Source of the DNA: a virus
Strand: one strand, 5' to 3'
IMG/VR virus record: IMGVR_UViG_3300045988_180522
DNA: 64,000 bases
The position numbers and the translations under genes are program-made. Shown here one piece after another: positions 42,140 to 56,365 of the stretch; the first letter of the stretch is position 1; every line of letters begins with the position of its first letter. Below the pieces are notes generated by a model. The model was not told the DNA's origin. It ran no database searches and worked only from the letters and a program-made list of their open reading frames with translations.

Positions 42140-42379
42140 TCATAGCTCTTTAAATTCTTTTTCTAATGCTTCAATTTTAGAATCAATGTATGCAAGAGTT
42201 CTATTCTTTAACTCTTTGAAGTCGATTAGAGAAGTTGTAATTACATATTTATGATTTCCATCCCAAATTTCTGTTCCAGAACAAAAACTCGTAGCACCTT
42301 CCCAAATATCCTTCTCATTTCTTAACTCCTCTAACTCCTCTTGAATTGTCTTAGCTCTACTGAATGTATATATATCCAT
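42140..42379 (-). CDS. Small hypothetical protein
   Basis: The track start is GTG; the ATG is at 42379, overlapping the upstream stop as TGATG. Confidence 0.35.
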   Translation of the reverse strand: MDIYTFSRAKTIQEELEELRNEKDIWEGATSFCSGTEIWDGNHKYVITTSLIDFKELKNRTLAYIDSKIEALEKEFKEL

Positions 42380-42852: not shown

Positions 42853-42993
42853 AATTAATGATTACTATTAGTTTTTGAATAATTCTTTGATATACACCAA
42901 AAATCTTCATCATAAATTTCTACTCTATTATAATATGGTTTAAATTTGTTATTTTCTTTTGTTTCCATATTCTTTAGTGTTATTTTTCATTTA

Positions 42994-43377: not shown

Positions 43378-43423
43378 AATATTGTTATTTAGTTATTAAT
43401 AACTTAGGCTCTTTGTCTTCCCT

Positions 43424-43663
43424 TCAATCCTTCTTTAATTCTATAGATTCATCATTCCAAGTTAAATCTTTACCTGTAAGTTTCTTGATAGAACCCTTAG
43501 GTAAAATAATCCCAGTATCTTCGTTATCATACTCACTACTGTTCTCATCACTCCAATATTCAGGTTCCCATAATTTACAACGTGATGTATCAGGGTCTTT
43601 TCTAAAGGGTCTAAAAGCAAATATACTTTCACTGCCATTTTTATTTACTGCTACAAATGCCAT
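43424..43663 (-). CDS. Small acidic hypothetical protein
   Basis: 79 aa with an ATG start. Confidence 0.35.
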   Translation of the reverse strand: MAFVAVNKNGSESIFAFRPFRKDPDTSRCKLWEPEYWSDENSSEYDNEDTGIILPKGSIKKLTGKDLTWNDESIELKKD

Positions 43664-43666
43664 AAC

Positions 43667-43867
43667 TTATAATTTATAATAATTAGTATCACATCTTACA
43701 ACTTCACCATTCTCATAGATTTGGTTTACTTCTACTCTCACTTTACCATGAATATAATCTTCTATAGTAGGTGTAATTATAGTATTGATTAACATTCCTA
43801 AGAAAATAGATAACAATAGAATTGCAAGTGCTGATGATATTCTAATATCTCTATCTTCCTGTGTCAT
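43667..43867 (-). CDS. Small single-pass membrane protein
   Basis: 66 aa; hydrophobic helix ISSALAILLLSIFLGMLINTII. Confidence 0.35.
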   Translation of the reverse strand: MTQEDRDIRISSALAILLLSIFLGMLINTIITPTIEDYIHGKVRVEVNQIYENGEVVRCDTNYYKL

Positions 43868-43877
43868 AACTTTTTAC

Positions 43878-44015
43878 TTAAGTATTCAAACTAAAATTAT
43901 ACCAAAACATACTTCCACAATCACAACATCTACAGTTAACTCCAGATGTAAAATACCCTACTTCATAATGGTAGGATCCACAATAAGGACATCTACATAA
44001 ATTTACCGTATACAT
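43878..44015 (-). CDS. 45-aa seven-cysteine peptide (zinc-ribbon-like CPxCG...CxCCxCG) immediately downstream of the radical SAM gene
   Basis: Hand translation gives MYTVNLCRCPYCGSYHYEVGYFTSGVNCRCCDCGSMFWYNFSLNT*. It is absent from the supplied track because it is under 60 aa. Confidence 0.3.
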   Translation of the reverse strand: MYTVNLCRCPYCGSYHYEVGYFTSGVNCRCCDCGSMFWYNFSLNT

Positions 44016-44039
44016 TTCTATCTATTTTTTTTAACTTTA

Positions 44040-44981
44040 TTAATATTGTAAGTCAAGAATATTATTCTCATTCCAAGAGAGAGAAATATCCCCGCTTACA
44101 AGACATTTAAATGTATTTATCTTCCTGTTCCTGATATCATTTTCGCAGATCTGGTCTGAAACTTTACTTCCCAGATTCCAGTTAATAATAATAGGACACT
44201 TAGCTGGAATTAAAAGATACCTGACAAATCCCAGCGTGTCCTTATTATCTATAATAGTATACGAATCTTTATATGCCTCTATCAGACTTGTGAACAGAGA
44301 TATATACTGCTTATCGGAGAGGATTAAATGGGTTCCCTTATTTTTGGTATTAACAGAGAAACTATCCTTTGGTATAATATTACTTATCCTGATCTCATCC
44401 ACAAAACTTATTTTACGTATGTGGTCAGTCAGTGAATTTATAGTATCCAGATTCCCTCTCCATATATTCGTATTAACTCTTACTTTTATAGCCGGATTAT
44501 AATATTTAATGGTATTGTAAATTCTTCTTAAGTCCTTCAGTGTGATAAAGTCCTCATTATGAAAGGATATATTTATACCCTGTATCCCTATATCCTCTCT
44601 TACAAGCTCCTTTATGAATGCTTCGTTATCTTTTAGTCTTATCCCATTAGTAGTCAGTCTGACCATATTCAATCCGGTATCAAGTCTTAGTGTAGATATG
44701 AACCCTAATATATTCGGATGCAGCAAAGGCTCTCCCCCAAGTAAAATAGCTTCTTTTATATTATACTTTTCAACCAGGTATCTGATATTACCTAAGGCTT
44801 TACCACAAGGCAAATCAAGGGATCTGTCTGTCTCTGAATTTATACAATAGGCACAATTACACTGACATTTATTTGTGACTACAATGCTTAGGTAAGCATT
44901 ATCGGATACTAATCCTATATCAGTAGGATAGTACCTGTTTTGCTTAAATATTTCAAGTGAATCTATTTGGATTATACTCAT
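44040..44981 (-). CDS. Radical SAM enzyme of unknown specificity
   Basis: 313 aa. It has a CxxxCxxC motif (NKCQCNCAYCINSE), a GGE SAM-binding motif (LLGGEPLLHP) and three additional C-terminal Cys (CPIII...C...C). Confidence 0.75.
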   Translation of the reverse strand: MSIIQIDSLEIFKQNRYYPTDIGLVSDNAYLSIVVTNKCQCNCAYCINSETDRSLDLPCGKALGNIRYLVEKYNIKEAILLGGEPLLHPNILGFISTLRLDTGLNMVRLTTNGIRLKDNEAFIKELVREDIGIQGINISFHNEDFITLKDLRRIYNTIKYYNPAIKVRVNTNIWRGNLDTINSLTDHIRKISFVDEIRISNIIPKDSFSVNTKNKGTHLILSDKQYISLFTSLIEAYKDSYTIIDNKDTLGFVRYLLIPAKCPIIINWNLGSKVSDQICENDIRNRKINTFKCLVSGDISLSWNENNILDLQY

Positions 44982-45014
44982 TTTTTTTCTCCTTTTCTTT
45001 TACCTATATCCTGT

Positions 45015-45398
45015 TTATACCTTAGCCTCACCGACATCTAAATATTCATAATGTACCATCCAGTATCTGCCATCTTTCAGAGGGAACAGAAAATAGCCGA
45101 AATGGCAGTACTTAAATACTGTCTTTTTATCAACAAAACAATGAAAATTATCTTCGTCATTGTCGCCTTCCCTTTTTAAGAAAAGGTCGGGCCTCCCTCT
45201 TACTGCACAGTAAGTATCTCCGTGTAATGTATATTTTTCAACGTATACATATCCAGAGTGCTCCTTAGTATCTGCATACTCCAGATATCCGGATATTTTG
45301 TCAAACGGGTAGTCAATATTACTTTTCACGTAAGAAACGGCTTCTGAGAATTCCTTTATCATAGCCTCCTTTTTTATATAGTCTTCAATATATCCCAT
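45015..45398 (-). CDS. Hypothetical protein
   Basis: 127 aa with an ATG start. Confidence 0.4.
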   Translation of the reverse strand: MGYIEDYIKKEAMIKEFSEAVSYVKSNIDYPFDKISGYLEYADTKEHSGYVYVEKYTLHGDTYCAVRGRPDLFLKREGDNDEDNFHCFVDKKTVFKYCHFGYFLFPLKDGRYWMVHYEYLDVGEAKV

Positions 45399-45425
45399 GT
45401 TATCAGTCCTCCTTCGTCATAATTT

Positions 45426-45854
45426 CTATTTTTTAAGTAAATTATTTTCAGCAAGATAACAAAGCATTTCATAGGCGGCTTCTAGTAACGTATCCCCATA
45501 AATTGGAGTGGAAAGTTTACTTCCGTCACTATCCTCAGTAGTCCCATAGTATACTCCCCACTCATCTATACATCTTTCTATTCTAAGAGAAAATACTTCA
45601 TTTGATCTAGAGGATACCCTGGGAGGGATAACATTCAATAAATCTTGGAGGGTAAAAGTTGGAATCACTTCATAAGACATAAATCCAATTACCTGAAACT
45701 CTTTCTGTAGACTAAGAAACCACTCTCCTGTAGAATCGTCGTCAATTTTACATCCATGACAATGACGTGTCCAATATAAAGTAGCTTCGCTAGTATCAAT
45801 ATCTAAGTCTTTTAGATGTTTCATTTGATCTATTGATAAAACCTGATCTCTCAT
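45426..45854 (-). CDS. Hypothetical protein
   Basis: 142 aa; its start overlaps the stop of 45851..46321. Confidence 0.4.
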   Translation of the reverse strand: MRDQVLSIDQMKHLKDLDIDTSEATLYWTRHCHGCKIDDDSTGEWFLSLQKEFQVIGFMSYEVIPTFTLQDLLNVIPPRVSSRSNEVFSLRIERCIDEWGVYYGTTEDSDGSKLSTPIYGDTLLEAAYEMLCYLAENNLLKK

Positions 45855-46321
45855 GCTAAAAATCTATTGGCTATATTTAATAAATCTCTAAAGCATTCCA
45901 TAAATTGCGTTGCCATACTTTTAGATGGGAACGTAAGAGTATGACAGTATACATAACGTGATATAAATGATACTGTTAATTCTCCATCTATCGTACTTTG
46001 GATATAATAAATATTCGCGCATGTTTTCTCTGGATCCCATTCACCTATCCAAGCTTTTCGTAACCTTATCAGTTGAATAAGAGCTAATGTGGCTTCTGCT
46101 TCTACTTCTGATGCATGTAAATTTCTATCCCCATAAGGAGTTCTGCCTTTATTCTCTCTTAAATTTATTTTTGAATCATAACCTATAAAATACTCCTGTC
46201 TAATAGGTGTTCTATTACAAAATTCTTCCCAAGTTTTAGGTATTACCCGACAAATTTTATAGATATTTCCTTCTTTTATAAGTTCTGAATCATCAGGAAT
46301 TTCAATAGTTATTACTTTCAT
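45851..46321 (-). CDS. Member B of the duplicated small-protein family (paralog of 42379..42852)
   Basis: 156 aa, clearly alignable with 42379..42852. Confidence 0.55.
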   Translation of the reverse strand: MKVITIEIPDDSELIKEGNIYKICRVIPKTWEEFCNRTPIRQEYFIGYDSKINLRENKGRTPYGDRNLHASEVEAEATLALIQLIRLRKAWIGEWDPEKTCANIYYIQSTIDGELTVSFISRYVYCHTLTFPSKSMATQFMECFRDLLNIANRFLA

Positions 46322-46328
46322 ATACTTT

Positions 46329-46562
46329 CTATTTTATAATTTCATACTCATCCGGGTGGAACATATAACATGTTCCTAATCCCATTACACTTATACCCAC
46401 CCGATATTCTCCATCATCTACGCAAGATTCATCCTGGAACACTAATAGTCCTCCTCTATGGAAATCAGGATGACATTCCACATTATCCTTTATTCTGACT
46501 TTTGTTCCCGCTGGATATTTATAAATATCAGGTCTGTCTTGTTTTCTCACTTTCTCTTTCAT
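46329..46562 (-). CDS. Small hypothetical protein
   Basis: The track start at 46592 is GTG and sits inside a GC-rich palindrome; the first ATG is at 46562, with AGGAAAA upstream. Confidence 0.35.
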   Translation of the reverse strand: MKEKVRKQDRPDIYKYPAGTKVRIKDNVECHPDFHRGGLLVFQDESCVDDGEYRVGISVMGLGTCYMFHPDEYEIIK

Positions 46563-46589
46563 TTTTCCTAAATTTAATGTATTTATATA

Positions 46590-46612
46590 CACCTCCCCCG
46601 GGCCGGGAGGTG
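46590..46612. repeat. GC-rich palindrome CACCTCCC-CCGGGCC-GGGAGGTG (representative of a dispersed CCNGG-containing palindrome family)
   Basis: The 8-bp arms are CACCTCCC and GGGAGGTG around CCGGGCC, in an intergenic 216-nt AT-rich spacer. Confidence 0.6.
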
Positions 46613-46808
46613 GATAATTTATAGGGAAATCTTTCTACTGAAATTACTGTATAACTTTTATAAATCCATACATAGTAAATAAAAATCCTACTGTAGAGAG
46701 TATTCCTCCCCAGATCTTGAAGAATGAAAAATCATCATAATCCTCATCTGATTTGTAAAAAGTTACCCCTATTATAAATAAAACTACTCCTATTAATATT
46801 GCCATGAT

Positions 46809-47036
46809 TCATATTTGTATATAAGACTCTCCTATCGTCCATCCCTGATCCTTTAATTCCTCCAGAACAGGCCTTATGGACTCAAGGGCCTCTTCTGTTG
46901 TATAGTCTTCAGGGAGGACAGATGTTACCTCCCTGAAAGCTTCAATAACTACAGTTATTTTCTGTTTTTTTGTCATATTCTGATTCCACGGTGCTGCATG
47001 ATCATAATCAGATCCTATAGGACAATTTTCACTCAT
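46809..47036 (-). CDS. Small hypothetical protein
   Basis: 75 aa with an ATG start. Confidence 0.3.
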   Translation of the reverse strand: MSENCPIGSDYDHAAPWNQNMTKKQKITVVIEAFREVTSVLPEDYTTEEALESIRPVLEELKDQGWTIGESYIQI

Positions 47037-47068
47037 ATTGTTTTGTTTCTTTTAGTAACCATACTTTG

Positions 47069-47386
47069 TCACTCATATTCATTATTAATATCAGAACACA
47101 ATTGTCTTATTTTTCTTTCAATTTCCAGTAACCGACTATCTGACATTTGTCTTGCTCTTAGAAGAATAGTACCCATATTCTCTCTTAAAGCATCTCCGAT
47201 ACATCTTATAGCCATACCTGTACTATTTGCCAGCTGACCGTGATATGTAAAAGATATCTCATTAGGGTTTACCTTAAGAATATCCGATTTTTCAGCTTCC
47301 TGATACTCCTCTATCAGCTTCCTGAGATTTTCTATATCTCTTCCAAAGTTTCTTTCTTTCATAATTACACTTATTAATGAATCCAT
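47069..47386 (-). CDS. Small hypothetical protein, possibly a relic of the polymerase C-terminal region
   Basis: 105 aa. It overlaps the candidate polymerase exon 3 in another frame. Similarity to the PolA C-terminus is weak. Confidence 0.3.
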   Translation of the reverse strand: MDSLISVIMKERNFGRDIENLRKLIEEYQEAEKSDILKVNPNEISFTYHGQLANSTGMAIRCIGDALRENMGTILLRARQMSDSRLLEIERKIRQLCSDINNEYE

Positions 47387-47526
47387 CTGTCTCCAATATT
47401 GACATCCACATCTATATGCAGTACAGATGTAAACAGATCACCTGCTTCTCTCATACACTTGGTCAGCAGGTCTGAAGCTTCCTGTACTATATCCTTTGAA
47501 GCTCCTATGTTTACCTCCATTTTGTG
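47374..47526 (-). CDS. Candidate third exon of the family A DNA polymerase (motif C region)
   Basis: Hand translation of an unlisted frame gives (HK)MEVNIGASKDIVQEASDLLTKCMREAGDLFTSVLHIDVDVNIGDRWIH*. The NIGASKDIV..A stretch resembles the PolA ..INAPMQGTAADIIKRA region. The expected HDE is replaced by HIDVD, and the ORF ends 9 codons later. Confidence 0.3.
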   Translation of the reverse strand, partial: HKMEVNIGASKDIVQEASDLLTKCMREAGDLFTSVLHIDVDVNIGDRWIH

Positions 47527-47585
47527 TTACGAATATATCGATTCCATATATTCTCTTATCCTTTCAGATAAGGCCGGACTATCTC

Positions 47586-48344
47586 TTATAAAGAAATTTC
47601 TCTCCATATACATCCGAGTTTTACTCCGGACATACTATTAATTTCTTTACCTGTGCGTTTCAATTCCTCTTGGAACTTACACCATTTCTGGTTAGTCTCT
47701 GAGCTCCACCTCTTATAGGAATAACAATTTAATGGGTATCTTGACAGTATATCAGACAAAATCTTAGCTCCTTTATATTTTTTGATCCTTAGATAATAGA
47801 AAATTCTTCCATCCTTTTTTCTTTCAACCTCGATCTCAGGGAATACTCCTATCCTGTTAAAAAATGGGATAAAAACCTGTTCCTGATCCTCCCTGCTAAA
47901 TCTATGAGTACTGATATTATAGTACATCTCATTTTTATGAAGGGATCCATTATCATATATCCATAGAGCTATTCCTAAGTCATCTATTTTATCCATAGCA
48001 TCTTTAAGACTAAGAGACCTTATAGAAGGCAGTATACGGCAGGACCTGGACCTCATACAATATATACTGGTCCTTGAATATCCGTTTTCTTCTACAAAAG
48101 TCTTACTCTTAAACAAATCTCCCAGTAATTGTGATTTGAAGTCTATATACTCCTCATACTTACAATTAGTACAGTAATAGGTGCTATTACTATTTGATGT
48201 ATATATACCTCCATCACCGATCTTTGCTGTCAAAAACACCTGTAATTGTTCTCTACTTAGAGAGTAAAGTTGCTGATTTTCCATTATTGTAGATTTATAG
48301 TATCGTACAAATATAGATAATATTATCAAGCATTCAACAGACAT
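47586..48344 (-). CDS. LAGLIDADG homing endonuclease (double-motif)
   Basis: Motifs FLTAKIGDGGI and GIALWIYDNGSLH. Confidence 0.6.
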   Translation of the reverse strand: MSVECLIILSIFVRYYKSTIMENQQLYSLSREQLQVFLTAKIGDGGIYTSNSNSTYYCTNCKYEEYIDFKSQLLGDLFKSKTFVEENGYSRTSIYCMRSRSCRILPSIRSLSLKDAMDKIDDLGIALWIYDNGSLHKNEMYYNISTHRFSREDQEQVFIPFFNRIGVFPEIEVERKKDGRIFYYLRIKKYKGAKILSDILSRYPLNCYSYKRWSSETNQKWCKFQEELKRTGKEINSMSGVKLGCIWREISL

Positions 48345-48547
48345 TTCTGTCTGTTTGTAGCTATTATCTCTTTAGGAGTTCCCAGCAGTTAACACAGTTT
48401 TACTACGACAAGGTTTTTTAGGTCCATCGTAGGGTGTTATATAAAACTCCACTTTATCATACAGCCATCCTCTGCTCCTGCATTCTCTGAACATATTGAT
48501 CAATGCGAATCTAAGTATCTGAGCTCCGGTGCCTTGTATCGTATTTA

Positions 48548-49282
48548 TTAATAATTATTTAATATGTAATTTGCAAATGATTTTAAATCTTCTACGGATG
48601 CGTTCTGTTTCATAGAATTAGCTAGCTTGGAAATAACCTGAACATTGCCTTTTACATATCCTTTATCAGGATCTATTCTATCTAAAGATATAGAATAGTC
48701 AGATCCTCCTAGCACACCAACAATAAAAGGTTTCCCAAGTATAGGGCATCTGTCAGGAATATAAATATCCTCAGGAGTAAGATTAAATTCAATATTATAC
48801 ATAGAGGCCCTCTTTCTGGCATTATTTAATAATGACATAATCTTACCACGTTCAGACTGCTGATATTTTACATCAATCCTCTTTAGATGTTCTGCATAGT
48901 CAGGATTATGAGTTTTTCTTATTTTCTTATTTATGTTAGATCTTAAGATAGTAATCTCTCTATTCGGACATCTTTGTACTCTCTTCACAGCACAAGGTTT
49001 ACAGACAGAATTTATTCTTCTTCTCTTTTTACTATAAGACCACCCAAATTCAGATAATGGAAGAAATCTATGACATTCATTACACCATTTTAAAGATGGA
49101 TCTGACGATCTTACATAATGGCCTCTAGGATTATAGGAAATTCCATTTTCCTCTGCTAGCCTCTTTAATCTCTCTACTTTCTGATTGTATACTCTTTCTT
49201 TTACGCATTCCTTACATACTACCTTATTAGTAGAGTAGAATTCAGAACTATCCTTTTCTTTTCCACAAATTTTGCAAATCAT
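48548..49282 (-). CDS. HNH-family homing endonuclease with N-terminal Cys zinc knuckles
   Basis: Zinc knuckles CKICGKEK...CKEC and CNECHRF...CKPCAVKRVQRC, and a C-terminal SLDRIDPDKGYVKGNVQVISKLANSMK motif (LDRID...GN.Q..S..AN..K type). Confidence 0.5.
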   Translation of the reverse strand: MICKICGKEKDSSEFYSTNKVVCKECVKERVYNQKVERLKRLAEENGISYNPRGHYVRSSDPSLKWCNECHRFLPLSEFGWSYSKKRRRINSVCKPCAVKRVQRCPNREITILRSNINKKIRKTHNPDYAEHLKRIDVKYQQSERGKIMSLLNNARKRASMYNIEFNLTPEDIYIPDRCPILGKPFIVGVLGGSDYSISLDRIDPDKGYVKGNVQVISKLANSMKQNASVEDLKSFANYILNNY

Positions 49283-49525
49283 ATCTATTATATTTTCTTT
49301 TCACAAACATAATAAGATATATACACAAAAGCAAATTATTAATTATCATTTTCATGATAGATCGGACTATATCATCTCCCTTCTCTTTTTAGAGGATGGG
49401 GAGTGGGATGCTGTGGGCTCATCGTAATGTCCCTAGTCTCTGAACCTTCCTCAGTCTTCCCTGAGGCTCGGCTGCTGATTATCATACAGTTTTCTGCTTA
49501 GATTCCCAGCAATTCTTCCCATTAT

Positions 49526-50062
49526 TCAAGCAATATTCCTATTGCAGGCTGCATACATTCTACAGTAGTTCACCGAAAATTTCTCAGCTTCCGACTTTCT
49601 TTTAAAGTAGTGTCTTACCTTTTTCACCATATCTCTCTCCTCCTGGTCCCTGGGGGACTTCTTTCCGGATCTGTCCTTTGGTATCTCTCTGTACTTGTTC
49701 CAGAATTCCTCTGTAAAGCTTTCTTTCAGCTCACACAGATCATCGAAATCATAGATATGGGCTCTGTGTCCGGTCTTAGGATTTATAATTACATATCCCA
49801 GTCTCATAACTTCCTCTTTCCTCATATTCTGCCACGCTATAAGCCCTTTGAAACCAGATCTGTACCTGTTATCCAGTTCCTTTGCTCTTTCTTCAGAGAG
49901 ACCGAAGTTCTGCATAAGGGTAGTCCATCCTCCCAGATAATTCCACAGGAACTCATACTTCTTTGCTGTATCTCTAAGATCACTGTGATATTTCTTAATA
50001 TCTGCCGTGGACAGGCCTTCCAGTTCTTTGAATACCATCCGGCCAGTCAGTGAGTGCATCAT
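49526..50062 (-). CDS. polA: Family A DNA polymerase, exon 2 (motif B and fingers/palm region); the ORF tail after about residue 110 is probably intron read-through
   Basis: RDTAKKYEFLWNYLGG corresponds to RRxAKxxNFGxxYG. ...LSEERAKELDNRYRSGFKGLIAWQNMRKEEVMRLGYVIINPKTGHRAHIYD aligns with E. coli Pol I [49 protein letters not shown]. Confidence 0.65.
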   Translation of the reverse strand: MMHSLTGRMVFKELEGLSTADIKKYHSDLRDTAKKYEFLWNYLGGWTTLMQNFGLSEERAKELDNRYRSGFKGLIAWQNMRKEEVMRLGYVIINPKTGHRAHIYDFDDLCELKESFTEEFWNKYREIPKDRSGKKSPRDQEERDMVKKVRHYFKRKSEAEKFSVNYCRMYAACNRNIA

Positions 50063-51129
50063 ATTTTGTTATCCCAAAGGCTTTTTATCCTCTGGTTCTA
50101 TAAGTACTGGTAACCTCCTTATAGTTCGGCATATATTTTCACCCTCTTTAAGAGGGGCTGAGAACTCGTGGGCTGTTATATTTATTCAAGCCTATGCTCT
50201 ACAATACTTATAACCCTATTCGCAATGTTATAAGTTATCTCGGTGTTGAATAAGTTACGCTTTCTTGAAAGAAAAATAGTAGCATCTTTATACAAGAAAT
50301 CATATATACATTTCTTTACCTTATCAGAAGCATTTATAATTACTTTCCAATAATCGGTAGTTTTTCCTTGAATATGATATATTCTATATGAGAAATTTTT
50401 AAACCAACCCATTATCTGCTTCATAAAATGTTCTGAATTAAACACAAATTCAACAATACTACATCCCACATGGCCGTCTCCATCAAAGAAGCCTCTTATA
50501 AAATGTCTCCACAATTCCTCAGGTATAGAATCTTCAGGAATATAAAAACTTTTGTCTAAAGTTTTTAGTGGTCTGATATTATACTTAGCTCCTAATGTAT
50601 CGAACATATGTTCAGAAGTCCATTGTAATGTGTAACAAGGTTTTTTCTTTCTGTTATGAGTGTAATTTTTAACTAGTAATGAAGAATCAGGACATATATT
50701 ACTATGTAATGCTTCTATAGCTTCCTTGTCATCTATAGTATTATTAAATGCTATCCTTTTCGTATAGTGTAAATTCCTCTTTTCTAATCTACAACACCCA
50801 TCTGCTACTAAAAATCCAAGTAAGTAGGCTTTCAGTTCGGAATCTATATTATCAAAGAAATAGTCGTTAATTCTAAGTCCTCTTCTATCAAACTTAATAT
50901 TATAGTACTTAAAACAATCACTTACTCTTTGGGAAGAAATACCAAACCGACTTCCTATTTCTCTCTGATTTTTACCTTCTCTCATCATTTGACAGGCTAT
51001 TTCTATGTCAAATCTCTCTAAGCACTCTTTTTTAGTCATTTTATTTATCTATGGCAGTTATTAACTATGCAATAGTATAAATAAAAATCACCATTACCAT
51101 ATTTTTCACCGATTTTTCTCAGTTTTTTA
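50063..51129 (-). mobile_element. Group I intron-like insertion carrying a LAGLIDADG HEG between polymerase exons 1 and 2
   Basis: Exon 1 ends ...GDRLH(VSLYSNI*) and exon 2 resumes (MMH)SLTGRMVF..., matching the PolA DIHT.TA..FG position. The HEG ORF is in the same frame as exon 1 but is separated from it by a stop, so an intein is unlikely. Confidence 0.45.
50182..51039 (-). CDS. LAGLIDADG homing endonuclease
   Basis: Two canonical dodecapeptides, AYLLGFLVADGCC and RHFIRGFFDGDGHVG. Confidence 0.8.
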   Translation of the reverse strand: MTKKECLERFDIEIACQMMREGKNQREIGSRFGISSQRVSDCFKYYNIKFDRRGLRINDYFFDNIDSELKAYLLGFLVADGCCRLEKRNLHYTKRIAFNNTIDDKEAIEALHSNICPDSSLLVKNYTHNRKKKPCYTLQWTSEHMFDTLGAKYNIRPLKTLDKSFYIPEDSIPEELWRHFIRGFFDGDGHVGCSIVEFVFNSEHFMKQIMGWFKNFSYRIYHIQGKTTDYWKVIINASDKVKKCIYDFLYKDATIFLSRKRNLFNTEITYNIANRVISIVEHRLE

Positions 51130-52653
51130 CTATATATTACTATATAGGGAGACATGCAATCTATCTCCACTTCCTTCCAGGAACTCACTGATCATAGCCT
51201 CATCCCTTGAAGCATCAGCCATAAGAACAGACTCTTCCCCTTTAACATCCTGTGATATCCACAGCCATCCCTCCCTTGGAATGAAGCATGATCTGGTTCT
51301 TTCATTCTTAGGAAGATTCAAAAGGTTCGGGTCTGTGGAACTGAATCTGGTGGTATCTGTTCCAAGCTGATGATAATTAGTATAGACCCTCCCGGTCCGG
51401 GGGTGGATATTTTCAAGGAATTTAGGCCCGTAAGTACTGACTACTTTCTCCAGTTTCTTGTATTTACAGTAGAGATCTACAATTTTATGGATATACCTCT
51501 GCGGCTTTATTTTCTTGGCATCACAGGTCTTTTTAAATCCTGTGGGACTATCCTTGTCTTCTACCATAACATCACATCCCAGCTCCTCCAGCAGAGGGAT
51601 TACCTGTCCTGAACTGGACCAGTTGATATCACATACATATCTTTCGGATTCATGAAACATATCGTACTGAGGATCCTCATAGATGTACGGATATTGCGAC
51701 ATTCTCTCATAGGCTATTTTCCTGTATTCCAGATTCCCGTCCTTAACTACCTTGTCCAGATCCGGCCTCCTCTTAAGTCTTTTCCTTTTTACAGGAACAG
51801 TCTTTCCTTTTACTTTCTTTGTCTTGTTGGAATCCTGGACATTGTTTGTAACCCATTCTTTCTGTTCCTCTTTGGACATGGAATAAGGATCGAAATAAAG
51901 GATTTTCCCCGGAGACGGATGTTCCAGTGAATATTCTATTACAGCCTTATTAAGAGCTTCTACAGACTCCTTAAGATCCCTCATATCATCTTCCGCCTTC
52001 TCCATCCATTTTTCCCGGCTTACAATCACTCCGCACCATTCCATATAAGACAGAGGGGCAATAGTCATTCCTTCTATAGCAGCAGCAGTATACAAATCCT
52101 GTCTTCTAAGCTCCTCTTCCTGCTTATCAGCTATCATAAGAAGATATTTCACATCATCACATGCATACACTATTACCTCAGGAGTAAGGCCTCTGGAAGC
52201 TATCTCCGTACGTACGGACTTATCCATACTGACTCCTGCATATCTGTGGGCCAGTCCCTGTAAACTTGCTGAAGGATAAGAAGGGTACCCTAGATATATC
52301 AGCTGTTCATTCAGGAACAGGTCATACATATTCATAATACATATTCTGTGATTATGCAGGTATTTGGCATCAAACTTACCATTAACTACTATAAACTGTA
52401 TGTCCTCAGATTCCAGCAACTCCTTATATAGTTGTATATCAATAGTATAAGTGTCAACAAGGATTTGTATATCAAAGTTTCCAAACTGTATACACCTGAT
52501 ATTCCCTGAATGACAGTCCAGTGAAGTAGTCTCAGTATCGAATCCTATTCTTTTCATACTGCGGAGGATATCCAGGGATTTCTCCACAGACATCCTCCCG
52601 TATTTATCAGAGGTTCCGAACAGGTCAGTATTATTACTTACTACATACCTCAT
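51130..52653 (-). CDS. polA: Family A DNA polymerase, exon 1 (3'-5' exonuclease and N-terminal polymerase domain with motif A)
   Basis: Exo I motif IGFDTETTSLD; TGRV...HQLGTDTTRFSSTDPNLLNLPK corresponds to TGRLSS.DPNLQNIP; motif A-like ISQDVKGEESVLMADASRDEAMISEF follows. The ORF then terminates. Confidence 0.8.
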   Translation of the reverse strand: MRYVVSNNTDLFGTSDKYGRMSVEKSLDILRSMKRIGFDTETTSLDCHSGNIRCIQFGNFDIQILVDTYTIDIQLYKELLESEDIQFIVVNGKFDAKYLHNHRICIMNMYDLFLNEQLIYLGYPSYPSASLQGLAHRYAGVSMDKSVRTEIASRGLTPEVIVYACDDVKYLLMIADKQEEELRRQDLYTAAAIEGMTIAPLSYMEWCGVIVSREKWMEKAEDDMRDLKESVEALNKAVIEYSLEHPSPGKILYFDPYSMSKEEQKEWVTNNVQDSNKTKKVKGKTVPVKRKRLKRRPDLDKVVKDGNLEYRKIAYERMSQYPYIYEDPQYDMFHESERYVCDINWSSSGQVIPLLEELGCDVMVEDKDSPTGFKKTCDAKKIKPQRYIHKIVDLYCKYKKLEKVVSTYGPKFLENIHPRTGRVYTNYHQLGTDTTRFSSTDPNLLNLPKNERTRSCFIPREGWLWISQDVKGEESVLMADASRDEAMISEFLEGSGDRLHVSLYSNI

Positions 52654-53221
52654 TTTTTTTTATTTTATGCCATACTATATACTTATCAAAATCTATCTTC
52701 CACTTGTGCTTGTCGAAGAATTCACTTCCGAGGATTCCTGTAACATTAAGGCCCTCCCTGTTGCTGAACTCTCTCAGTCCTTTCAGGTCTGAGACCAGAA
52801 AGTCCTCATTGAATTCCATATTCCTGATATTAAATCTGACCTGCATACCATAGGAATCCATAATAGCTCCGTTCCCCACCTGTATCTTATCTCCTTCGGC
52901 TATTGTCTTCCCTTTCAGCTTATCCTTTATAGTATACAGGAATTGAATATCAAGGCAGTTCTGGTGAGCTCCGGAATCCAGAAGGAACCTGCATTTCTTA
53001 CCATACAGGTGAACAATGATCATCGGAGTCTTTGTCCTTTCGAAATAATCCTCAAAAGAGAAAAACTCCCATTCTTTTGTATTCTCATTGTTCCTGTTCA
53101 GATCCCTTGAGATTCTCAGGGTAATAAGATATACCGGCCACAATGCCAGTAATAAAAATGCCAGACATACCATCCCCATATTACCTCCTTCCGGTGGAGC
53201 CGAATCCTCCTCTGGACTCAT
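52634..53221 (-). CDS. Membrane-anchored retropepsin-like (clan AA) aspartic protease
   Basis: The track start at 53251 is TTG; the first ATG is at 53221. It has a TM helix ([21 protein letters not shown]), a catalytic [12 protein letters not shown] motif (D-S/T-G-A) and a C-terminal [12 protein letters not shown] motif (ILGxDFL type). The stop overlaps the polymerase start by 20 nt. Confidence 0.6.
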
Positions 53222-53389
53222 TTCCCAGATGTTGTACTTCCACAAACTCAATTTTCTTTGTGAACAACCACTTTATCTTCTGCCATGGTGTTGCAAACTG
53301 GTTAGGCTGTATCCTGAACTGTGCTATCCAGTCCCCTTTTTTATCTATATACATCTCTGTTCTGGCAGAATGCAGTTTGTATCTTATTT

Positions 53390-54418
53390 TCATATTACAT
53401 TAATGTTAGTAATTTCTCTTCTGTAATTATTTACATATGTGTCATAGGAATAGTTGAATATTCCTGTACTGATATGCCATCGGCATTCCCTATACAGCCG
53501 TACCCATCCCTTGTATACTGTGCCTTTATCGTCCACAAATCCGTTTGTATTCAGTGACATCCTGAAATCCCACTGTATAGGGCCGGGAGAGCTGGTATTA
53601 ATAGTGATGAAGGAGAATACAGGGTCTACAGTATATTCCCTGAAATCAGGATCCTTCTCTATAATACTCTTCAACCCTTGTACATACATGCAGGCCTGGA
53701 TGTAATACCCGTACCTGGTTACAGAGTCAGGGAAATATTCTTCCCATTTTCCTGTAGTTTTCAGGTCATAGATCTTTATGGTTTTCCTGATATGGTTGAC
53801 GATGATAAGGTCAGGCATAAATTTATACTCACCGACATGTTTCACATTGGCTATAAACTTCAGCTGGGTAAACATTTCTGTTTCTCCGTTGTTACTGCAA
53901 CGGGGATATACAGGGCTGTCAAGGAGTATCTCGGAAGCTCTCAGCAATGACTCATACTGATCTACTGACAGTATCTTCTTTCCCTCAGTCAGCAGGCTGT
54001 AATACTTCCCCGCAGACTTTACTATCTTATCCACCCTAGTGTCATCCTTCCAGTTAGTTTGATAGTCATGCATATTTGCAGCAGTGACAATAACCTGTTT
54101 CGGGATTGAATCCAGTGCTTTACCCGGAAAGGCATTGTGAATGGAATCTGCTATACTTTTAAGTTTGTCTCCCGGCATATCACAGTCGGCCAGGAAAGAA
54201 AAGTTCTTCCTGATGTATACAGGGCCTTCAAATACTATTCTGTCCATCAATGCCCCTCTCTCCAGATACCTGTCTGTATCCGTATCATGGTCAAGGTATT
54301 TCTTTATAGCCTGAGGTCCTTCCCTGTTGTAGGCACTGAGCATTGAATAGGATATCAGATCCATAGATCTGTATTCCTCATCTGTTATATTTTTTGACAG
54401 GTCTTTAAAGCTTTTCAT
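53390..54418 (-). CDS. PD-(D/E)xK superfamily nuclease (YqaJ/lambda-exo or Cas4-like recombination nuclease candidate)
   Basis: 342 aa; the core is ...[26 protein letters not shown] (PD ... D-L-K). Confidence 0.5.
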
Positions 54419-54633
54419 ACTAATTGTTTTAAAATGTGTTCAGCTCTGTCCAGGGCATCCATATCCACACTGATATGCAGATCAGGATTCCTGTTGAATT
54501 TCTCTCTGATCAGGCTGATAATATTGATTACGGTCTCATATTCCCTGTTTTTCAGGGAATCCACTGATGCTCTCAGGTAATTTACTGGCATTGACTGTAT
54601 CAGGCTGATGATTTTCCGTTCTTCTTCATTCAT
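54415..54633 (-). CDS. Small hypothetical protein
   Basis: 72 aa with ATGA overlaps on both sides. Confidence 0.3.
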   Translation of the reverse strand: MNEEERKIISLIQSMPVNYLRASVDSLKNREYETVINIISLIREKFNRNPDLHISVDMDALDRAEHILKQLV

Positions 54634-55124
54634 GTCTTCATTTTGTTTTTAATTTCTTCAATACACTTCTTCATGCTGTGTACCGTCGTTACTTCAAAAA
54701 ACCTCACCTCCAGGCCCTGATGGTCTGATTTGTTCAGGTAATCTATAAACAGTTTTCTCTTTACAGGGTATACATCATTCCTGAATCCTTTTACCTCTAT
54801 AATATCCAGAACATTACCATGCCTGTATACAAAATCAGGGGTATATGTAAGGTCACGGAGTTTCCTGATATCAGGCTGAAAGACAGCTGCCTGTCCTCTT
54901 CTGCTGTATGTACTCCATACCTGTACATTATCAGGGTAGTCCCCTTTCATGAGTATTATCTTTTCAGGCTCATACTCCAGTCTTATTCCTTCTCTCAGGG
55001 CATACCTGTACATATTCAGTTCAGCCTTCGACTTAAACTGTATACCATCGAAGAATCCGGGGGTGGCATTTTTAATCTTCCTGTTCTTATCAGAATGGGA
55101 GATCGTCTGTTTCTTCTTCATCAT
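54630..55124 (-). CDS. T7 endonuclease I-like Holliday junction resolvase
   Basis: 164 aa; YTPDFVYRHGNVLDIIEVKG matches the T7 gp3 signature YTPDF....EVKG. Confidence 0.6.
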   Translation of the reverse strand: MMKKKQTISHSDKNRKIKNATPGFFDGIQFKSKAELNMYRYALREGIRLEYEPEKIILMKGDYPDNVQVWSTYSRRGQAAVFQPDIRKLRDLTYTPDFVYRHGNVLDIIEVKGFRNDVYPVKRKLFIDYLNKSDHQGLEVRFFEVTTVHSMKKCIEEIKNKMKT

Positions 55125-55803
55125 ATTCAGGTAATAACCATTTGAATTCAGTCCCCATATTCTCCTTCATGAACCTGTTTATCCTGGCAAACGGATCATC
55201 TGTCATTCTGGTATTACTACGGGCAAAATAAGCAGGATGTTCACATTTCAGTATACATGCCGCATTCTGCACTGCCGGAATGAAGGAGGCTGCCTGAGCC
55301 CCGAAGAACAGCCATATTACATCTGTTCTGTCGGAAGAAAACATTCTGATAAAGGTATCTGTAAATTCCCTCCAGGCAGCCTGATGGCTACCCGGGGAAT
55401 TTACCTTTACAGTAAGGGCTGAATTTATCATCAGTATTCCCTGAGACACCCATGACTCAAGAGTGGGATCGAATCTGGCTTCATCAGAAGGCCTGTAAGA
55501 AGAGATCTCAGGATGCAGGATACATTCCTTCAGTATCTTTAAAGAAGGACTTAAATCTTCGGATTTGGTACCTTCTTTATTGCCGAACAATATTCCCGTA
55601 GCTACTCCTTTTTGAGGGTAGGGATCCTGTCCCACTATAACAAGCCAGGTCCTGGAGGGGTCTGTAAGATGAAAGGCACGGAATACCTTATCTATTTCCG
55701 GACACATATTATCTGTATCCTTATCTATAGATGTGAGGGTATTCATGAGCACCTGTTCATTCATATAGACTCCCCATTTACCTAATAATTCATTTTTGAT
55801 CAT
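55090..55803 (-). CDS. ung: Uracil-DNA glycosylase, family 1-like
   Basis: FRAFHLT...[22 protein letters not shown] corresponds to [36 protein letters not shown] corresponds to the water-activating loop GVLLLNAVLTV; and ...LFFGAQAA...LKCEHPA corresponds to HPSP. Confidence 0.85.
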   Translation of the reverse strand: [237 protein letters not shown]

Positions 55804-56365
55804 ACAATTGATTGATTATAACATTATAATTCTTACTGAGATACGCAGTTACAAACTGATCTGCATTCTCCAGAGCCTTCATCTTTACTGAAGGGGTCAC
55901 AACAGTATACTGTTCCTTATCGACAGCCTTTACAGAAAGAGTAGTATAGACGGAATGGATAGTGTATTCTAACGATACAGCTGTATTTATCAGTCTTGTC
56001 ATATCTGCTTTTGATAATACAGGAGCATCATAATTTATATAAATCTCTTTTTTATCAATAAAGACAGAGAGGATGACCTCCTTGTCATATATAGCTGTCC
56101 CTGCTATACACAGCATATTGGATCCTTTATACTGTAGTATGTATGGACTATTCCTACTACTACTTATAGTGTGTATAGCCTCCTTCAGAGATTTTGCCAC
56201 CATTATACGATCTATACATGGAATGTAGTACTTACCTTCATTGTTACCGACCTGTATCAGGTAATCATGCATATCGTTATTATTCGCATGATATACACGT
56301 ATTAGTGGAGAGGTGTTACAGTAAGCTCCATCCAGTATATTGCTTAATGTATACATTTCCATCAT
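55790..56365 (-). CDS. Hypothetical protein within the Ubl-cassette operon
   Basis: 191 aa with ATGA overlaps on both sides. Confidence 0.35.
   Translation of the reverse strand: MMEMYTLSNILDGAYCNTSPLIRVYHANNNDMHDYLIQVGNNEGKYYIPCIDRIMVAKSLKEAIHTISSSRNSPYILQYKGSNMLCIAGTAIYDKEVILSVFIDKKEIYINYDAPVLSKADMTRLINTAVSLEYTIHSVYTTLSVKAVDKEQYTVVTPSVKMKALENADQFVTAYLSKNYNVIINQLYDQK

What the first reader, a model, noticed from the sequence alone, without database searches (positions are those of the whole stretch)
47374..52653. Family A DNA polymerase gene fragmented by three homing-endonuclease genes (two LAGLIDADG, one HNH) in two intron-like insertions
Exon 1 (51130..52653) carries the exonuclease FDTETT motif and motif A, then stops. 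After a LAGLIDADG HEG (50182..51039), exon 2 (49526..50062) carries motif B and the ...GYVIINPKTGHRAHIYD block. After an HNH HEG (48548..49282) and a second LAGLIDADG HEG (47586..48344), the QG.AAD/motif C region reappears in an unlisted frame (47374..47526). At both junctions the upstream exon tail and the downstream exon head duplicate the same PolA position (DRLH|SLTG and FSVN|VNIG), as expected for intron insertion sites. The first HEG shares the exon-1 frame but is separated from it by a stop, which argues against an intein. This would be a multi-intron essential gene requiring RNA splicing in a Bacteroidales phage.
Basis: partly seen in the sequence, partly recalled or inferred. Interest (0 to 1): 0.65.

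Follow-up and report, generated by a model that had tools for sequence, protein, structure and literature searches.

The report
Three self-splicing introns in phage polymerase
The DNA polymerase gene of this crAss-like gut phage is interrupted by three separate mobile group I introns, each carrying its own homing endonuclease gene; this is a clear example of a phenomenon already known in phages, not a new kind of system.

Summary
There are three insertions and four exons, not two and three. A 114-nt exon (48426..48539, QGTGAQIL…ITPYD) lies between the HNH-like gene and the second LAGLIDADG gene.

Exact boundaries come from near-identical phage genomes (97-99%) that lack one, two or all three insertions. 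The uninterrupted alleles encode a 748-aa PolA that is 744/748 identical to my predicted spliced product.

All three insertions have group I intron hallmarks:
- a U·G wobble at the 5' splice site in P1;
- an adjacent P10 guide strand;
- a terminal G.

Evidence for each ribozyme core:
- **Intron 2** passes Rfam RF00028 (71.7 bits, threshold 50).
- **Intron 3** gives a partial hit (32.4 bits, E 3e-6) plus a compensatory change in P8.
- **Intron 1** is invisible to Rfam. It belongs to a widespread phage RNA family whose group I-type fold is strongly supported by covariation (95% paired against 30-42% in controls).

Relatives carry HEG-less versions of introns 1 and 2, as expected from the homing cycle. 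Multi-intron polymerase genes are already reported in Bastillevirinae, and multi-intron core genes in crAss-like phages. This is a new member of a known kind. Splicing itself is inferred, not shown.

The parts
51163..52653 (-). PolA exon 1 (497 codons): 3'-5' exonuclease domain, the start of the polymerase domain, and motif A. Ends ...GGA GAU.
   Evidence: Pfam PF01612 and PF00476. The boundary is set by the intron-less alleles L002, L004 and L005.
50060..51162 (-). Intron 1 (1103 nt): a group I intron of an IA-like family that Rfam misses. The LAGLIDADG gene sits in the P5 loop.
   Evidence: Absent precisely in L002, L004 and L005; a 361-nt HEG-less copy is present in Dulem virus 41. Family covariation supports the fold. 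No RF00028 hit.
51148..51158 (-). Intron 1 internal guide sequence. UGCAU (P10) pairs with the exon 2 start AUGCA. GUCUCC (P1) pairs with the exon 1 end GGAGAU, with U·G at the splice site.
   Evidence: 11 contiguous base pairs, reached by 7 of 20000 shuffles. Compensatory A-U to G-C change in P1 between the window/Dulem and L003.
50182..51039 (-). LAGLIDADG homing endonuclease gene 1 (285 aa, with an N-terminal HTH-like region). Its last ~22 codons are also the ribozyme P4', P6, J6/7 and P7. Its stop codon lies in the conserved P7.1 loop.
   Evidence: PF14528 at 39.2 bits against a 22.5 cut-off; phrog_4645 endonuclease at E 4e-41. Overlap read from alignment A1 and the coordinates.
50060..50244 (-). 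Intron 1 3' core: P4' (50240..50244), P6, J6/7-P7 (GUAGAGCAUA), P7.1, P3' (UUCUCAG), P8, J8/7-P7' (GAAAAUAUAUGC), P9, P9.1, and the tail GAUAACAAAAUAUG ending in the terminal G.
   Evidence: Alignment A1 and the pair counts. Coordinates. This is the part that the HEG-less Dulem copy retains.
49562..50059 (-). PolA exon 2 (166 codons): motif B region. Ends ...AAC UAC UGU.
   Evidence: PF00476 profile positions 198-278. Boundaries from the intron-less alleles.
48540..49561 (-). Intron 2 (1022 nt): a group I intron. The ribozyme core is at the 5' end and the HNH-like gene lies downstream of P9. Only 8 nt separate the stop codon from the 3' splice site.
   Evidence: Absent precisely in L002, L003 and L005. 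HEG-less copies of 278 nt (Dulem) and 257 nt (L004) have different deletion end points.
49343..49571 (-). Intron 2 ribozyme core, P1 to P9, including 10 nt of exon 2 in P1.
   Evidence: Rfam RF00028 at 71.7 bits against a gathering score of 50, E 3.6e-17, covering the full model 1-253. The identical score is found in the Dulem copy.
48548..49282 (-). Intron 2 endonuclease gene (244 aa), HNH/endonuclease VII-like.
   Evidence: PHROG 3322 (E 2e-30), 1035 endonuclease VII (E 1e-26), 3118 and 3377 HNH. No significant Pfam match and no PDB sequence match.
48426..48539 (-). It ends on the motif C aspartate codon GAU.
   Evidence: Translation. Contiguous with exon 4 in Dulem, L002, L004 and L005. Aligns to QGTCADIL…VHD of apicoplast PolA.
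47518..48425 (-). Intron 3 (908 nt): a group I intron inserted between the Asp and Glu codons of motif C. It carries the second LAGLIDADG gene.
   Evidence: Absent precisely in Dulem, L002, L004 and L005; present in L003. P1 CUACGAU/GUCGUAG plus P10 ACCUU/GAGGU give 12 bp, reached by 4 of 20000 shuffles.
47586..48344 (-). LAGLIDADG homing endonuclease gene 2 (252 aa). Its 3' part overlaps P4', P7, P7.1, P7.2, P3' and most of P8.
   Evidence: PF03161 at 26.6 bits against a 25 cut-off. Overlap.
47518..47804 (-). Intron 3 3' core: P7 (GACUA 47693..47697 with UAGUC 47577..47581), P7.1, P7.2, P3' (CACAG), a long P8, P9, P9.1 and the terminal G.
   Evidence: Rfam RF00028 partial match at 47555..47804, 32.4 bits, E 2.8e-6, below the gathering score. 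Between the window and L003 there is a compensatory A-U to G-C change in P8 (intron nt 780 and 834) and G·U-preserving changes in P7 and P9.
47374..47517 (-). PolA exon 4 (47 codons plus stop): EVNIGASKD…DVNIGDRWIH*, the motif C glutamate and the C-terminus.
   Evidence: Translation. Aligns to DEIIIEVNK…VKIAENW of apicoplast PolA.

Best explanation
The region is one intact family A DNA polymerase gene (3'-5' exonuclease plus polymerase, 748 codons) of a crAss-like phage. It is interrupted at three sites by three independent mobile group I introns, each carrying its own homing endonuclease gene.

**Splicing (inferred).** After transcription each intron folds into a ribozyme. Its internal guide sequence pairs with the end of the upstream exon (P1, U·G wobble) and the start of the downstream exon (P10). 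Two transesterifications, started by a free guanosine and completed at the intron's terminal G, remove the intron and join the exons in frame. This restores GD|MHSLT, NYC|IQGTGA and the catalytic motif C YD|E.

**Homing (inferred).** When an intron-plus and an intron-minus phage co-infect a cell, the endonucleases (two LAGLIDADG, one HNH/EndoVII-like) cut the empty site. Repair then copies in the intron together with nearby exon bases.

**Shown here:** the exact insertion boundaries, the intact spliced reading frame, the guide pairings, the ribozyme cores (Rfam and/or covariation), and independent presence/absence of each intron and each endonuclease gene among near-identical phages.

**Inferred, not shown:** that splicing and homing actually occur.
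For: - **Boundaries.** Near-identical genomes lack the insertions exactly at the predicted splice sites. L002 and L005 lack all three, L003 lacks intron 2, L004 lacks introns 1 and 3, and Dulem virus 41 lacks intron 3. The uninterrupted 748-aa ORFs are 744/748 identical to the predicted spliced product.
- **Spliced protein.** It matches PF00476 as a single stretch, residues 343-746 on profile 30-379/381, at 168 bits. The fragments alone score 87 and 25.5. The alignment to apicoplast PolA crosses all three junctions without gaps.
- **Splice-site signatures.** Every 5' exon ends in U opposite a G of the guide strand, and every intron ends in G. P1+P10 is 11 bp in intron 1 (7/20000 shuffles) and 12 bp in intron 3 (4/20000).
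- **Intron 2.** RF00028 at 71.7 bits, above the threshold of 50.
- **Intron 3.** RF00028 at 32.4 bits, E 3e-6, over the 3' half of the core. There is a compensatory change in P8 between the window and L003.
- **Intron 1.**
  - Its core signature recurs in 44 viral contigs.
  - On a sequence-only MAFFT alignment, a P2-P9.1 group I-type structure including the P3/P7 pseudoknot is 95.3% paired, against 30-42% for slid controls.
  - 45 of 60 pairs change on both sides, covariation is 0.686 against at most 0.127, and 0 of 500 shuffles reach the observed values.
  - A sister subfamily with the same architecture differs by two compensatory pairs in P7. Rfam calls it group I at the matched sites, at 64.8, 59.9 and 52.5 bits.
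  - P1 shows an A-U to G-C compensatory change between the window/Dulem and L003.
- **HEG-less copies.** They keep exactly the ribozyme parts, including the ORF 3' end that encodes P4'-P7 of intron 1.
- **Composition.** The introns are 31-34% GC and the exons 42%.
Against: - There are no transcript data, so splicing is not demonstrated.
- Rfam does not detect intron 1 at all, even in its HEG-less form at E up to 10. It detects intron 3 only below the gathering score.
- P4-P6 of intron 3 and the P5 closure of intron 1 are only hand-assigned.
- The P7 helix of the intron 1 family was held constant by my search pattern. Its support comes only from the comparison with the sister subfamily.
- Both LAGLIDADG ORFs overlap core helices, which might slow folding.
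- The HNH-like protein has no Pfam or PDB support. By eye, it has Arg where many HNH proteins have His, so its activity is uncertain.
Confidence: 0.9

Rival explanations
1. Gene in pieces. The endonuclease genes are free-standing and have split the polymerase into separately translated polypeptides that assemble after translation, as in the split nrdA or gene 43 of some T4-like phages. No RNA splicing is involved.
For: Exon 2 happens to be preceded by AUGAUG, and exon 4 by an AUG that straddles the junction, so the ORF finder lists them as ORFs with start codons. Rfam sees no ribozyme in insertion 1.
Against: - Exon 3 (38 codons) begins AUA with no start codon. It would have to supply the motif C aspartate on its own, with the adjacent glutamate on another peptide.
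- All three insertions have guide sequences, a U·G wobble, a terminal G and ribozyme cores.
- HEG-less derivatives still keep 257-361 nt of structured non-coding RNA. A free-standing endonuclease gene would have no reason to leave that behind.
Confidence: 0.04
2. Decaying gene. The introns, or some of them, no longer splice, and the polymerase in this particular genome is a pseudogene carried by a defective or helper-dependent phage.
For: Splicing is untested. The LAGLIDADG ORFs overlap core helices. The neighbouring dUTPase carries an internal deletion in this genome.
Against: - The exons carry no frameshift or stop and are 99.5% identical in protein to the uninterrupted alleles.
- Substitutions within the introns are compensatory or wobble-preserving, which indicates selection on the fold.
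- The same intron 1 plus intron 3 arrangement occurs in an independent contig, L003, cut from an 80-kb contig.
Confidence: 0.04
3. Inteins. The insertions are removed at the protein level.
For: LAGLIDADG domains also occur in inteins, and LAGLIDADG-1 is in the exon 1 frame.
Against: - Stop codons separate every exon from the following ORF.
- The Pfam scan of the three endonuclease ORFs returned no intein or Hint-type family.
- Insertions 2 and 3 begin with non-coding ribozyme sequence.
- The HEG-less copies are non-coding.
Confidence: 0.005
4. Assembly artefact or chimera of several strains.
For: The relatives come from metagenomes where intron-plus and intron-minus strains appear to co-occur. 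All four IMG/VR relatives come from dataset 3300045988.
Against: - Each junction is supported by independent assemblies. Introns 1 and 3 with their endonuclease genes are in L003, and the cores of introns 1 and 2 are in the Dulem virus 41 complete circular genome and in L004.
- The boundaries coincide with functional splice sites to the nucleotide.
Confidence: 0.01

Closest known systems
Multi-intron DNA polymerase genes of Bacillus phages (SPO1, Bastille and other Bastillevirinae)
   Same: A phage DNA polymerase gene interrupted by group I introns, mostly IA-like, with homing endonuclease genes in loops. [quoted passage not shown] The SPO1 and Bastille polymerase introns are cited in PMC3984707.
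   Different: The host lineage here is crAss-like, with a probable Bacteroidales host rather than Bacillus. Here two of the three endonucleases are LAGLIDADG, whereas most Bastillevirinae intron proteins fall in HNH-annotated PHROG clusters. Splicing has been verified experimentally there and not here.
Intron-rich core genes of crAss-like phages (Yutin et al. 2021, PMC7886860)
   Same: The same phage order. Core genes are fragmented by several group I introns with LAGLIDADG and other endonucleases, such as MCP in five fragments and PolB in four.
   Different: That report concerns the Delta and Zeta groups and the genes PolB, MCP and primase, and it recognised the introns by their protein domains. 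Here the gene is PolA, whose nearest named relatives are cr111_1, IAS virus and crAss001. The ribozymes and exact splice sites are defined, and empty-site and HEG-less alleles are available.
T4 td / nrdB / nrdD introns (subgroup IA2 phage introns)
   Same: Group I introns in essential phage nucleotide-metabolism genes. They have P7.1/P7.2-type extra hairpins between P7 and P3', endonuclease genes in peripheral loops, and homing with co-conversion of flanking exon sequence (general knowledge; reviews PMC3984707 and PMC2988022).
   Different: The resemblance of P4-P6 and the 3' tail to td is from memory and was not tested against the td sequence. The T4 introns are in three different genes, not three in one gene.
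Staphylococcus phage Twort introns
   Same: Several self-splicing group I introns within single phage genes. [quoted passage not shown] Three in one gene (orf142) is from my own knowledge of Landthaler & Shub 1999.
   Different: A different host, different genes and, from memory, a different intron subgroup. This was not tested here.

Membership tests
Group I intron (Rfam RF00028) | The covariance model of the conserved core (P1-P9) scores above the curated threshold. | tested here: inconclusive
   Intron 2 meets it at 71.7 bits against 50. Intron 3 is below threshold at 32.4 bits, E 2.8e-6, covering the 3' half. Intron 1 gives no hit at E up to 10, even in its HEG-less form. Its sister subfamily with the same architecture scores 52.5-64.8 bits.
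Group I intron | The 5' splice site follows a U that forms a U·G wobble in P1 with an internal guide sequence. The adjacent guide bases pair with the 3' exon (P10). | tested here: met
   Intron 1: GGAGAU/GUCUCC plus UGCAU/AUGCA. Intron 2: CUGUA/UGCAG plus UGUAU/AUACA. Intron 3: CUACGAU/GUCGUAG plus ACCUU/GAGGU. P1 of intron 1 shows a compensatory change in L003.
Group I intron | The last intron nucleotide is G. | tested here: met
   All three introns end in G immediately before the exon. The boundaries are fixed independently by the intron-less alleles.
Group I intron | A core fold with a P4-P6 domain and a P3-P7-P8 pseudoknot, supported by covariation. | tested here: met
   Intron 1 family (19 sequences, sequence-only MAFFT alignment): 95.3% paired, and 45 of 60 pairs change on both sides. 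P3 is 99% paired with 6 of 7 pairs covarying. Controls are 30-42% paired, and 0 of 500 shuffles reach the observed values. P7 covaries only between subfamilies. For introns 2 and 3 this rests on the Rfam alignments.
Group I intron | Guanosine-dependent self-splicing of the RNA. | not testable with these tools
   This needs in vitro transcription and splicing, or RNA-seq.
Subgroup IA group I introns | Extra hairpins P7.1 (and P7.2) between the P7 5' strand and the P3 3' strand. | tested here: met
   Intron 1 family: the P7.1 stem is 98.9% paired, and 3 of its 5 pairs change on both sides. Intron 2 has a 28-nt insertion at this position in the Rfam alignment. Intron 3 has two hairpins, ACCA-GAAA-UGGU and UUCC-AAGA-GGAA, read by eye. 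Assignment to IA1, IA2 or IA3 was not tested.
LAGLIDADG homing endonuclease | A LAGLIDADG domain profile match above the curated cut-off. | tested here: met
   ORF 50182..51039 matches PF14528 at 39.2 bits against 22.5. ORF 47586..48344 matches PF03161 at 26.6 bits against 25. Cleavage activity was not tested.
HNH / His-Me finger endonuclease | An HNH (beta-beta-alpha-metal) catalytic motif recognised by a curated profile or structure. | tested here: inconclusive
   There is no significant Pfam match (nothing at E up to 0.1; best E 0.11 for an unrelated family) and no PDB sequence match. PHROG profiles annotated endonuclease, endonuclease VII and HNH match at E 2e-30 to 2e-5. The fold was not predicted.
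Family A DNA polymerase | A full-length PF00476 match plus the exonuclease domain, with colinearity to solved PolA structures across motifs A, B and C. | tested here: met
   The spliced product matches PF00476 at 168.4 bits over profile 30-379/381, and PF01612 at 82 bits. It aligns to the apicoplast and Taq/Klenow polymerases.
Intein | An in-frame insertion without stop codons, carrying Hint splicing blocks. | tested here: not met
   Stop codons lie between the exons and the inserted ORFs. The Pfam scan returned no intein or Hint-type family.
crAss-like phages (Crassvirales) | Phylogenetic placement by conserved genes such as TerL, MCP and portal. | not tested
   The only lead is the polymerase. 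After Dulem virus 41, the best matches are crAss-like phages at 33-44% identity. Polymerase type is known to be exchanged among crAss-like phages (PMC7886860), so this is suggestive only.

The most novel reading that the evidence does not exclude
There are two modestly novel readings.

1. Intron 1 may represent a widespread, compact IA-like subfamily (P7 GCAUA/UAUGC, invariant P7.1 loop UGAAUAAAUAUAA, tail GAUAACA..UG). It is shared by crAss-like phages, Firmicutes phages and a cyanophage. The general Rfam model fails to detect it, and none of the listed phage records label it as an intron. Intron content of gut phage genomes would then be systematically undercounted.
2. This phage population holds, at one gene, every stage of the homing cycle for three different introns: empty site, intron with endonuclease gene, and intron without it. 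That would make gain and loss dynamics of introns and endonuclease genes directly measurable in a gut phage.
Probability: 0.35. Interest if true: 0.45.

Novelty: new member of a known kind. Interest (0 to 1): 0.33.

Why it matters
- **Annotation.** The closest GenBank record (Dulem virus 41) lists this polymerase as three separate 'polymerase/primase' CDSs plus hypothetical proteins. The true product is one 748-aa enzyme.
- **Detection.** Relying on Rfam RF00028 alone would have found one of the three introns. Comparing near-identical genomes and checking family covariation recovers the rest. The same intron 1-type RNA lies, with no intron annotation in the listed rows, in many phage records.
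- **Biology.** This is a clean natural series for studying homing in crAss-like phages. It does not change what is known about how such elements work.

Tried and rejected
- **Rfam on insertion 1.** I tried the window and the HEG-less Dulem copy at E up to 10 and found nothing. Rfam on ten loci of the intron 1 family at E up to 0.01 hit only other introns at other coordinates.
- **nhmmer with the intron 1 5' flank.** Against the family loci it gave only weak hits. The 5' halves were then found by conserved P4 motifs instead.
- **Search for close relatives of intron 3.** The pattern CAGAGACTA…AGAGATAGTCC returned a sister group of the intron 1 family, not intron 3 relatives. Intron 3 therefore has no family covariation, only the comparison of the window with L003.
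- **First hand model of intron 3.** My initial P4 (GCUG/UAGC) is contradicted by a G-to-A change in L003. I replaced it with UGGG/CCCA, by analogy with the intron 1 family. This remains an inference.
- **MFE folding.** Folding of the mini-introns cannot represent the pseudoknot and was not used as evidence.
- **P1+P10 shuffle test for intron 2.** It returned nothing because its P1 has only 4 exon base pairs, below the 5-bp minimum I had set. Intron 2 rests on Rfam instead.
- **Further elements in the window.**
  - tblastn with the three endonuclease proteins found no paralogues.
  - The only match to the intron 1 J8/7–P7' motif is intron 1 itself.
  - Apart from intron 2, nothing in the window passes an Rfam gathering threshold.
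- **HNH label.** PDB and permissive Pfam searches of the HNH-like ORF gave only noise.

Full report
**What is at the coordinates.**
- a 507-aa ORF (51130..52653);
- a 285-aa ORF (50182..51039);
- a 178-aa ORF (49526..50062);
- a 244-aa ORF (48548..49282);
- a 252-aa ORF (47586..48344);
- a 48-aa ORF (47374..47520).

Pfam confirms a 3'-5' exonuclease domain and the first half of PF00476 in the first ORF, and the middle of PF00476 in the third. It finds LAGLIDADG domains in the second and fifth, and nothing in the fourth. PHROG profiles annotated endonuclease, endonuclease VII and HNH match the fourth ORF at E 2e-30 to 2e-5. Permissive Pfam and PDB sequence searches give only noise. The 'HNH' label is therefore plausible but weakly based.

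**Anatomy corrected by a natural experiment.** A megablast against phage genomes found Dulem virus 41 (PP511520.1, a 92.9-kb circular genome from lemur faeces). It is 97% identical but about 2.1 kb shorter over this region. Four IMG/VR contigs encode a 99-100% identical exon 1.

Comparing all of them shows three independent insertions in the window. The entries give the insertion length in nt; HEG is the homing endonuclease gene.

| Genome | Insertion 1 | Insertion 2 | Insertion 3 |
|---|---|---|---|
| Window | 1103, with HEG | 1022, with HEG | 908, with HEG |
| L003 | 1103, with HEG | absent | 908, with HEG |
| Dulem virus 41 (L001) | 361, HEG-less | 278, HEG-less | absent |
| L004 | absent | 257, HEG-less | absent |
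| L002 | absent | absent | absent |
| L005 | absent | absent | absent |

The gene therefore has four exons: 52653..51163, 50059..49562, 48539..48426 and 47517..47374.

**The spliced product is an intact polymerase.**
- Joining the four exons gives a 748-codon ORF.
- The uninterrupted alleles L002 and L005 encode 748 aa that are 744/748 identical to this prediction.
- The spliced protein matches PF00476 as one stretch over profile positions 30-379 of 381, at 168 bits. The fragments alone score 87 and 25.5.
- Its alignment to the apicoplast PolA crosses all three junctions without gaps: GD|MHSLT with IDLHTLT, NYC|IQGTGAQIL with NYPVQGTCADIL, and YD|EVNIG with HDEIIIE.
- Intron 3 therefore sits between the Asp and Glu codons of catalytic motif C.

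**Splice-site signatures.** Each upstream exon ends in U and each insertion ends in G. Near its 5' end, each insertion has a guide sequence that pairs with the last bases of the upstream exon (P1, U·G at the junction). Immediately 5' of that, it pairs with the first bases of the downstream exon (P10):
- intron 1: GGAGAU/GUCUCC and UGCAU/AUGCA;
- intron 2: CUGUA/UGCAG and UGUAU/AUACA;
- intron 3: CUACGAU/GUCGUAG and ACCUU/GAGGU.

The contiguous 11-bp and 12-bp guides of introns 1 and 3 are reached by 7 and 4 of 20000 shuffles. In L003 the exon base at -4 is G instead of A, and the paired intron base is C instead of U. This is a compensatory change in P1 of intron 1.

The palindromic UGCA in the intron 1 guide explains why the read-through of exon 1 (…DRLH) looked like a duplicate of the exon 2 start (MH…).

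**Ribozyme cores.**

*Intron 2* contains a full RF00028 match at 49343..49571 (71.7 bits, gathering score 50). It is the only Rfam family above threshold in the whole window.

*Intron 3* gives a partial RF00028 match at 47555..47804 (32.4 bits, E 2.8e-6). It covers J6/7-P7, P3', P8, J8/7-P7' and P9. Between the window and L003, intron positions 780 (A to G) and 834 (U to C) turn an A-U pair of P8 into G-C. The changes in P7 and P9 give G·U pairs.

*Intron 1* gives no Rfam hit, even as the 361-nt HEG-less copy. The evidence for its core is as follows.
- Its J6/7-P7…J8/7-P7' signature occurs in 44 IMG/VR contigs. Many of these carry compact, ORF-less copies.
- I aligned 18 of these with the window intron, after cutting out its P5 insertion, using a sequence-only MAFFT alignment.
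- On that alignment I tested a group I-type structure: P2, P3, P4, P5, P6, P7, P7.1, P8, P9 and P9.1, with P3/P7 as a pseudoknot.
- The structure is 95.3% paired, against 30-42% when partners are slid.
- 45 of 60 pairs change on both sides, and the covariation score is 0.686 against at most 0.127. In 0 of 500 shuffles is any observed value reached.
- P7 could not vary in that set because my search pattern fixed it.
- A sister subfamily with the same block architecture has GACUA/UAGUC where this family has GCAUA/UAUGC. That is two compensatory pairs.
- Rfam recognises the sister subfamily as group I at the matched positions, at 64.8, 59.9 and 52.5 bits.

**Where the endonuclease genes sit.**
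- **Intron 1.** The LAGLIDADG ORF lies in the P5 loop. Its last ~22 codons (…NTEITYNIANRVISIVEHRLE*) are also P4', P6, J6/7 and P7, and its stop codon lies in the conserved P7.1 loop. The HEG-less Dulem copy has lost the body of the ORF but keeps exactly this 3' part.
- **Intron 2.** The whole core precedes the ORF. The two HEG-less copies keep intron nt 1-232/234 plus the last 23-46 nt, with different deletion end points.
- **Intron 3.** The second LAGLIDADG ORF overlaps P7 through most of P8. By analogy with the intron 1 family, it probably also occupies P5. This is inferred.

**Signs of mobility.**
- Each intron, and each endonuclease gene, is present or absent independently among genomes that are 97-99% identical.
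- Synonymous exon differences next to introns 2 and 3 co-segregate with intron presence.
- Exon 3, flanked by two introns, is only 91-96% identical to the relatives, against 97-99% elsewhere. This is what co-conversion during homing would leave.
- The introns are 31-34% GC against 42% for the exons.

**Which phage.** After Dulem virus 41, the best polymerase matches are crAss-like phages: cr111_1 at 44%, IAS virus at 41%, crAss001 and other Bacteroides phages at 33-40%. A Bacteroidales host is therefore plausible but was not tested.

**Comparison with what is known.**
- Group I introns with endonuclease genes in phage DNA polymerase genes have been known since SPO1 and Bastille (cited in PMC3984707).
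[quoted passage not shown] These are mostly IA-like, and the ribozyme signature is often detectable on only one side of the endonuclease loop (PMC11878797).
- For crAss-like phages, Yutin et al. described core genes (MCP, PolB, primase) split by several group I introns, recognised through their endonuclease domains (PMC7886860).
- The intron 1-type RNA itself is present in Bacillus, Clostridioides, Staphylococcus, Oenococcus, Leptolyngbya and several crAss-like phage records. None of the listed rows label it as an intron. In Bacillus phage PJN02 it lies between two RecD-like helicase CDSs, next to a 'mobile intron protein'.

The finding is thus a well-resolved new member of a known kind.

**Rivals.**
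- **Gene in pieces.** A split, multi-subunit polymerase without splicing is very unlikely. Exon 3 has no start codon and would separate the two motif C acidic residues. All three insertions carry ribozyme features that persist after loss of the endonuclease gene.
- **Pseudogene.** This is unlikely given intact exons and structure-preserving substitutions.
- **Inteins.** These are excluded by stop codons and by the absence of any intein or Hint-type family in the Pfam scan.
- **Assembly artefact.** This is excluded by independent assemblies that share each junction.

What remains unproven is splicing and homing activity. That needs RNA or biochemical data.

Noticed in passing
window 53181..53393 (-): The dUTPase gene just upstream of the polymerase region is reduced to a 70-aa ORF by an in-frame internal deletion. 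Residues 24-101 are missing relative to the 154-aa protein of Dulem virus 41, L002 and L003. L004 and L005 show no dUTPase match at all, so this locus is also polymorphic in the population.
   Followed up: partly
window 48426..48539 and the exon bases flanking 49562/48539 and 48426/47517: Exon 3, flanked by two introns, is only 91-96% identical to the relatives, against 97-99% for the rest of the gene. Synonymous SNPs beside introns 2 and 3 co-segregate with intron presence (for example TCGGTGAAC…GGCACCGGAGCT against TCAGTCAAC…GGTACTGGTGCT). This looks like co-conversion tracts or divergence of the target sites.
   Followed up: partly
L006-L049 (IMG/VR); L072 2501..2769 (Bacillus phage vB_BsuS_PJN02); L071 2501..2696 (crAss-like cr7_1): The intron 1-type RNA is a large family found in 44 viral contigs and in many GenBank phages, and none of the listed GenBank rows label it as an intron. 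In PJN02 it interrupts a RecD-like helicase gene at the Walker A codons GMGK|S, with the endonuclease ORFs lying upstream of the core in the P1 loop region. In cr7_1 it overlaps the end of the annotated terminase large subunit CDS.
   Followed up: partly
alignment A1 columns 4-9 (L006, L008, L012, L020, L025 and others): Many family members share 'UGCCGU' exactly where the guide sequence should be, although their host genes differ. In the two cases examined (L020 and PJN02), the 5' exon ends in a GGU glycine codon that pairs with the GCC. The conservation may therefore reflect repeated insertion after GGU codons. The trailing GU is unexplained.
   Followed up: partly
L043 1853..2094 and 3589..3803; L033 823..1080; L047 526..725: Additional RF00028 group I introns lie within a few kb of intron 1-type elements in other viral contigs. 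These genomes therefore also carry clusters of several introns.
   Followed up: no
window 50182..50244 (-): This stretch is dual-coding. The C-terminal ~22 residues of LAGLIDADG-1 are translated from ribozyme helices P4', P6 and P7, and the stop codon falls in the conserved P7.1 loop. An independent family member (L016) ends its ORF the same way (…NTEISFNLINRVIEIVEHRIE*).
   Followed up: partly
window 48548..49282 (-): The presumed catalytic stretch of the HNH-like protein reads SLDRIDPDKGYVKGNVQVISKLAN, with Arg where many HNH proteins have His. PHROG also matches families annotated 'Srd anti-sigma factor' and 'decoy of host sigma70' over the same region. Whether it is an active nuclease is open.
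   Followed up: no
window 52634..53251 (-): The ORF immediately upstream overlaps the polymerase start by 20 nt. Its counterpart in Dulem virus 41 is annotated 'retropepsin-like protein', an unusual neighbour for a replication module.
   Followed up: no
window 1..64000: ARAGORN found no tRNA or suppressor tRNA genes in the window. The polymerase exons contain no in-frame stop codons, so there is no sign of stop-codon reassignment in this gene.
   Followed up: yes
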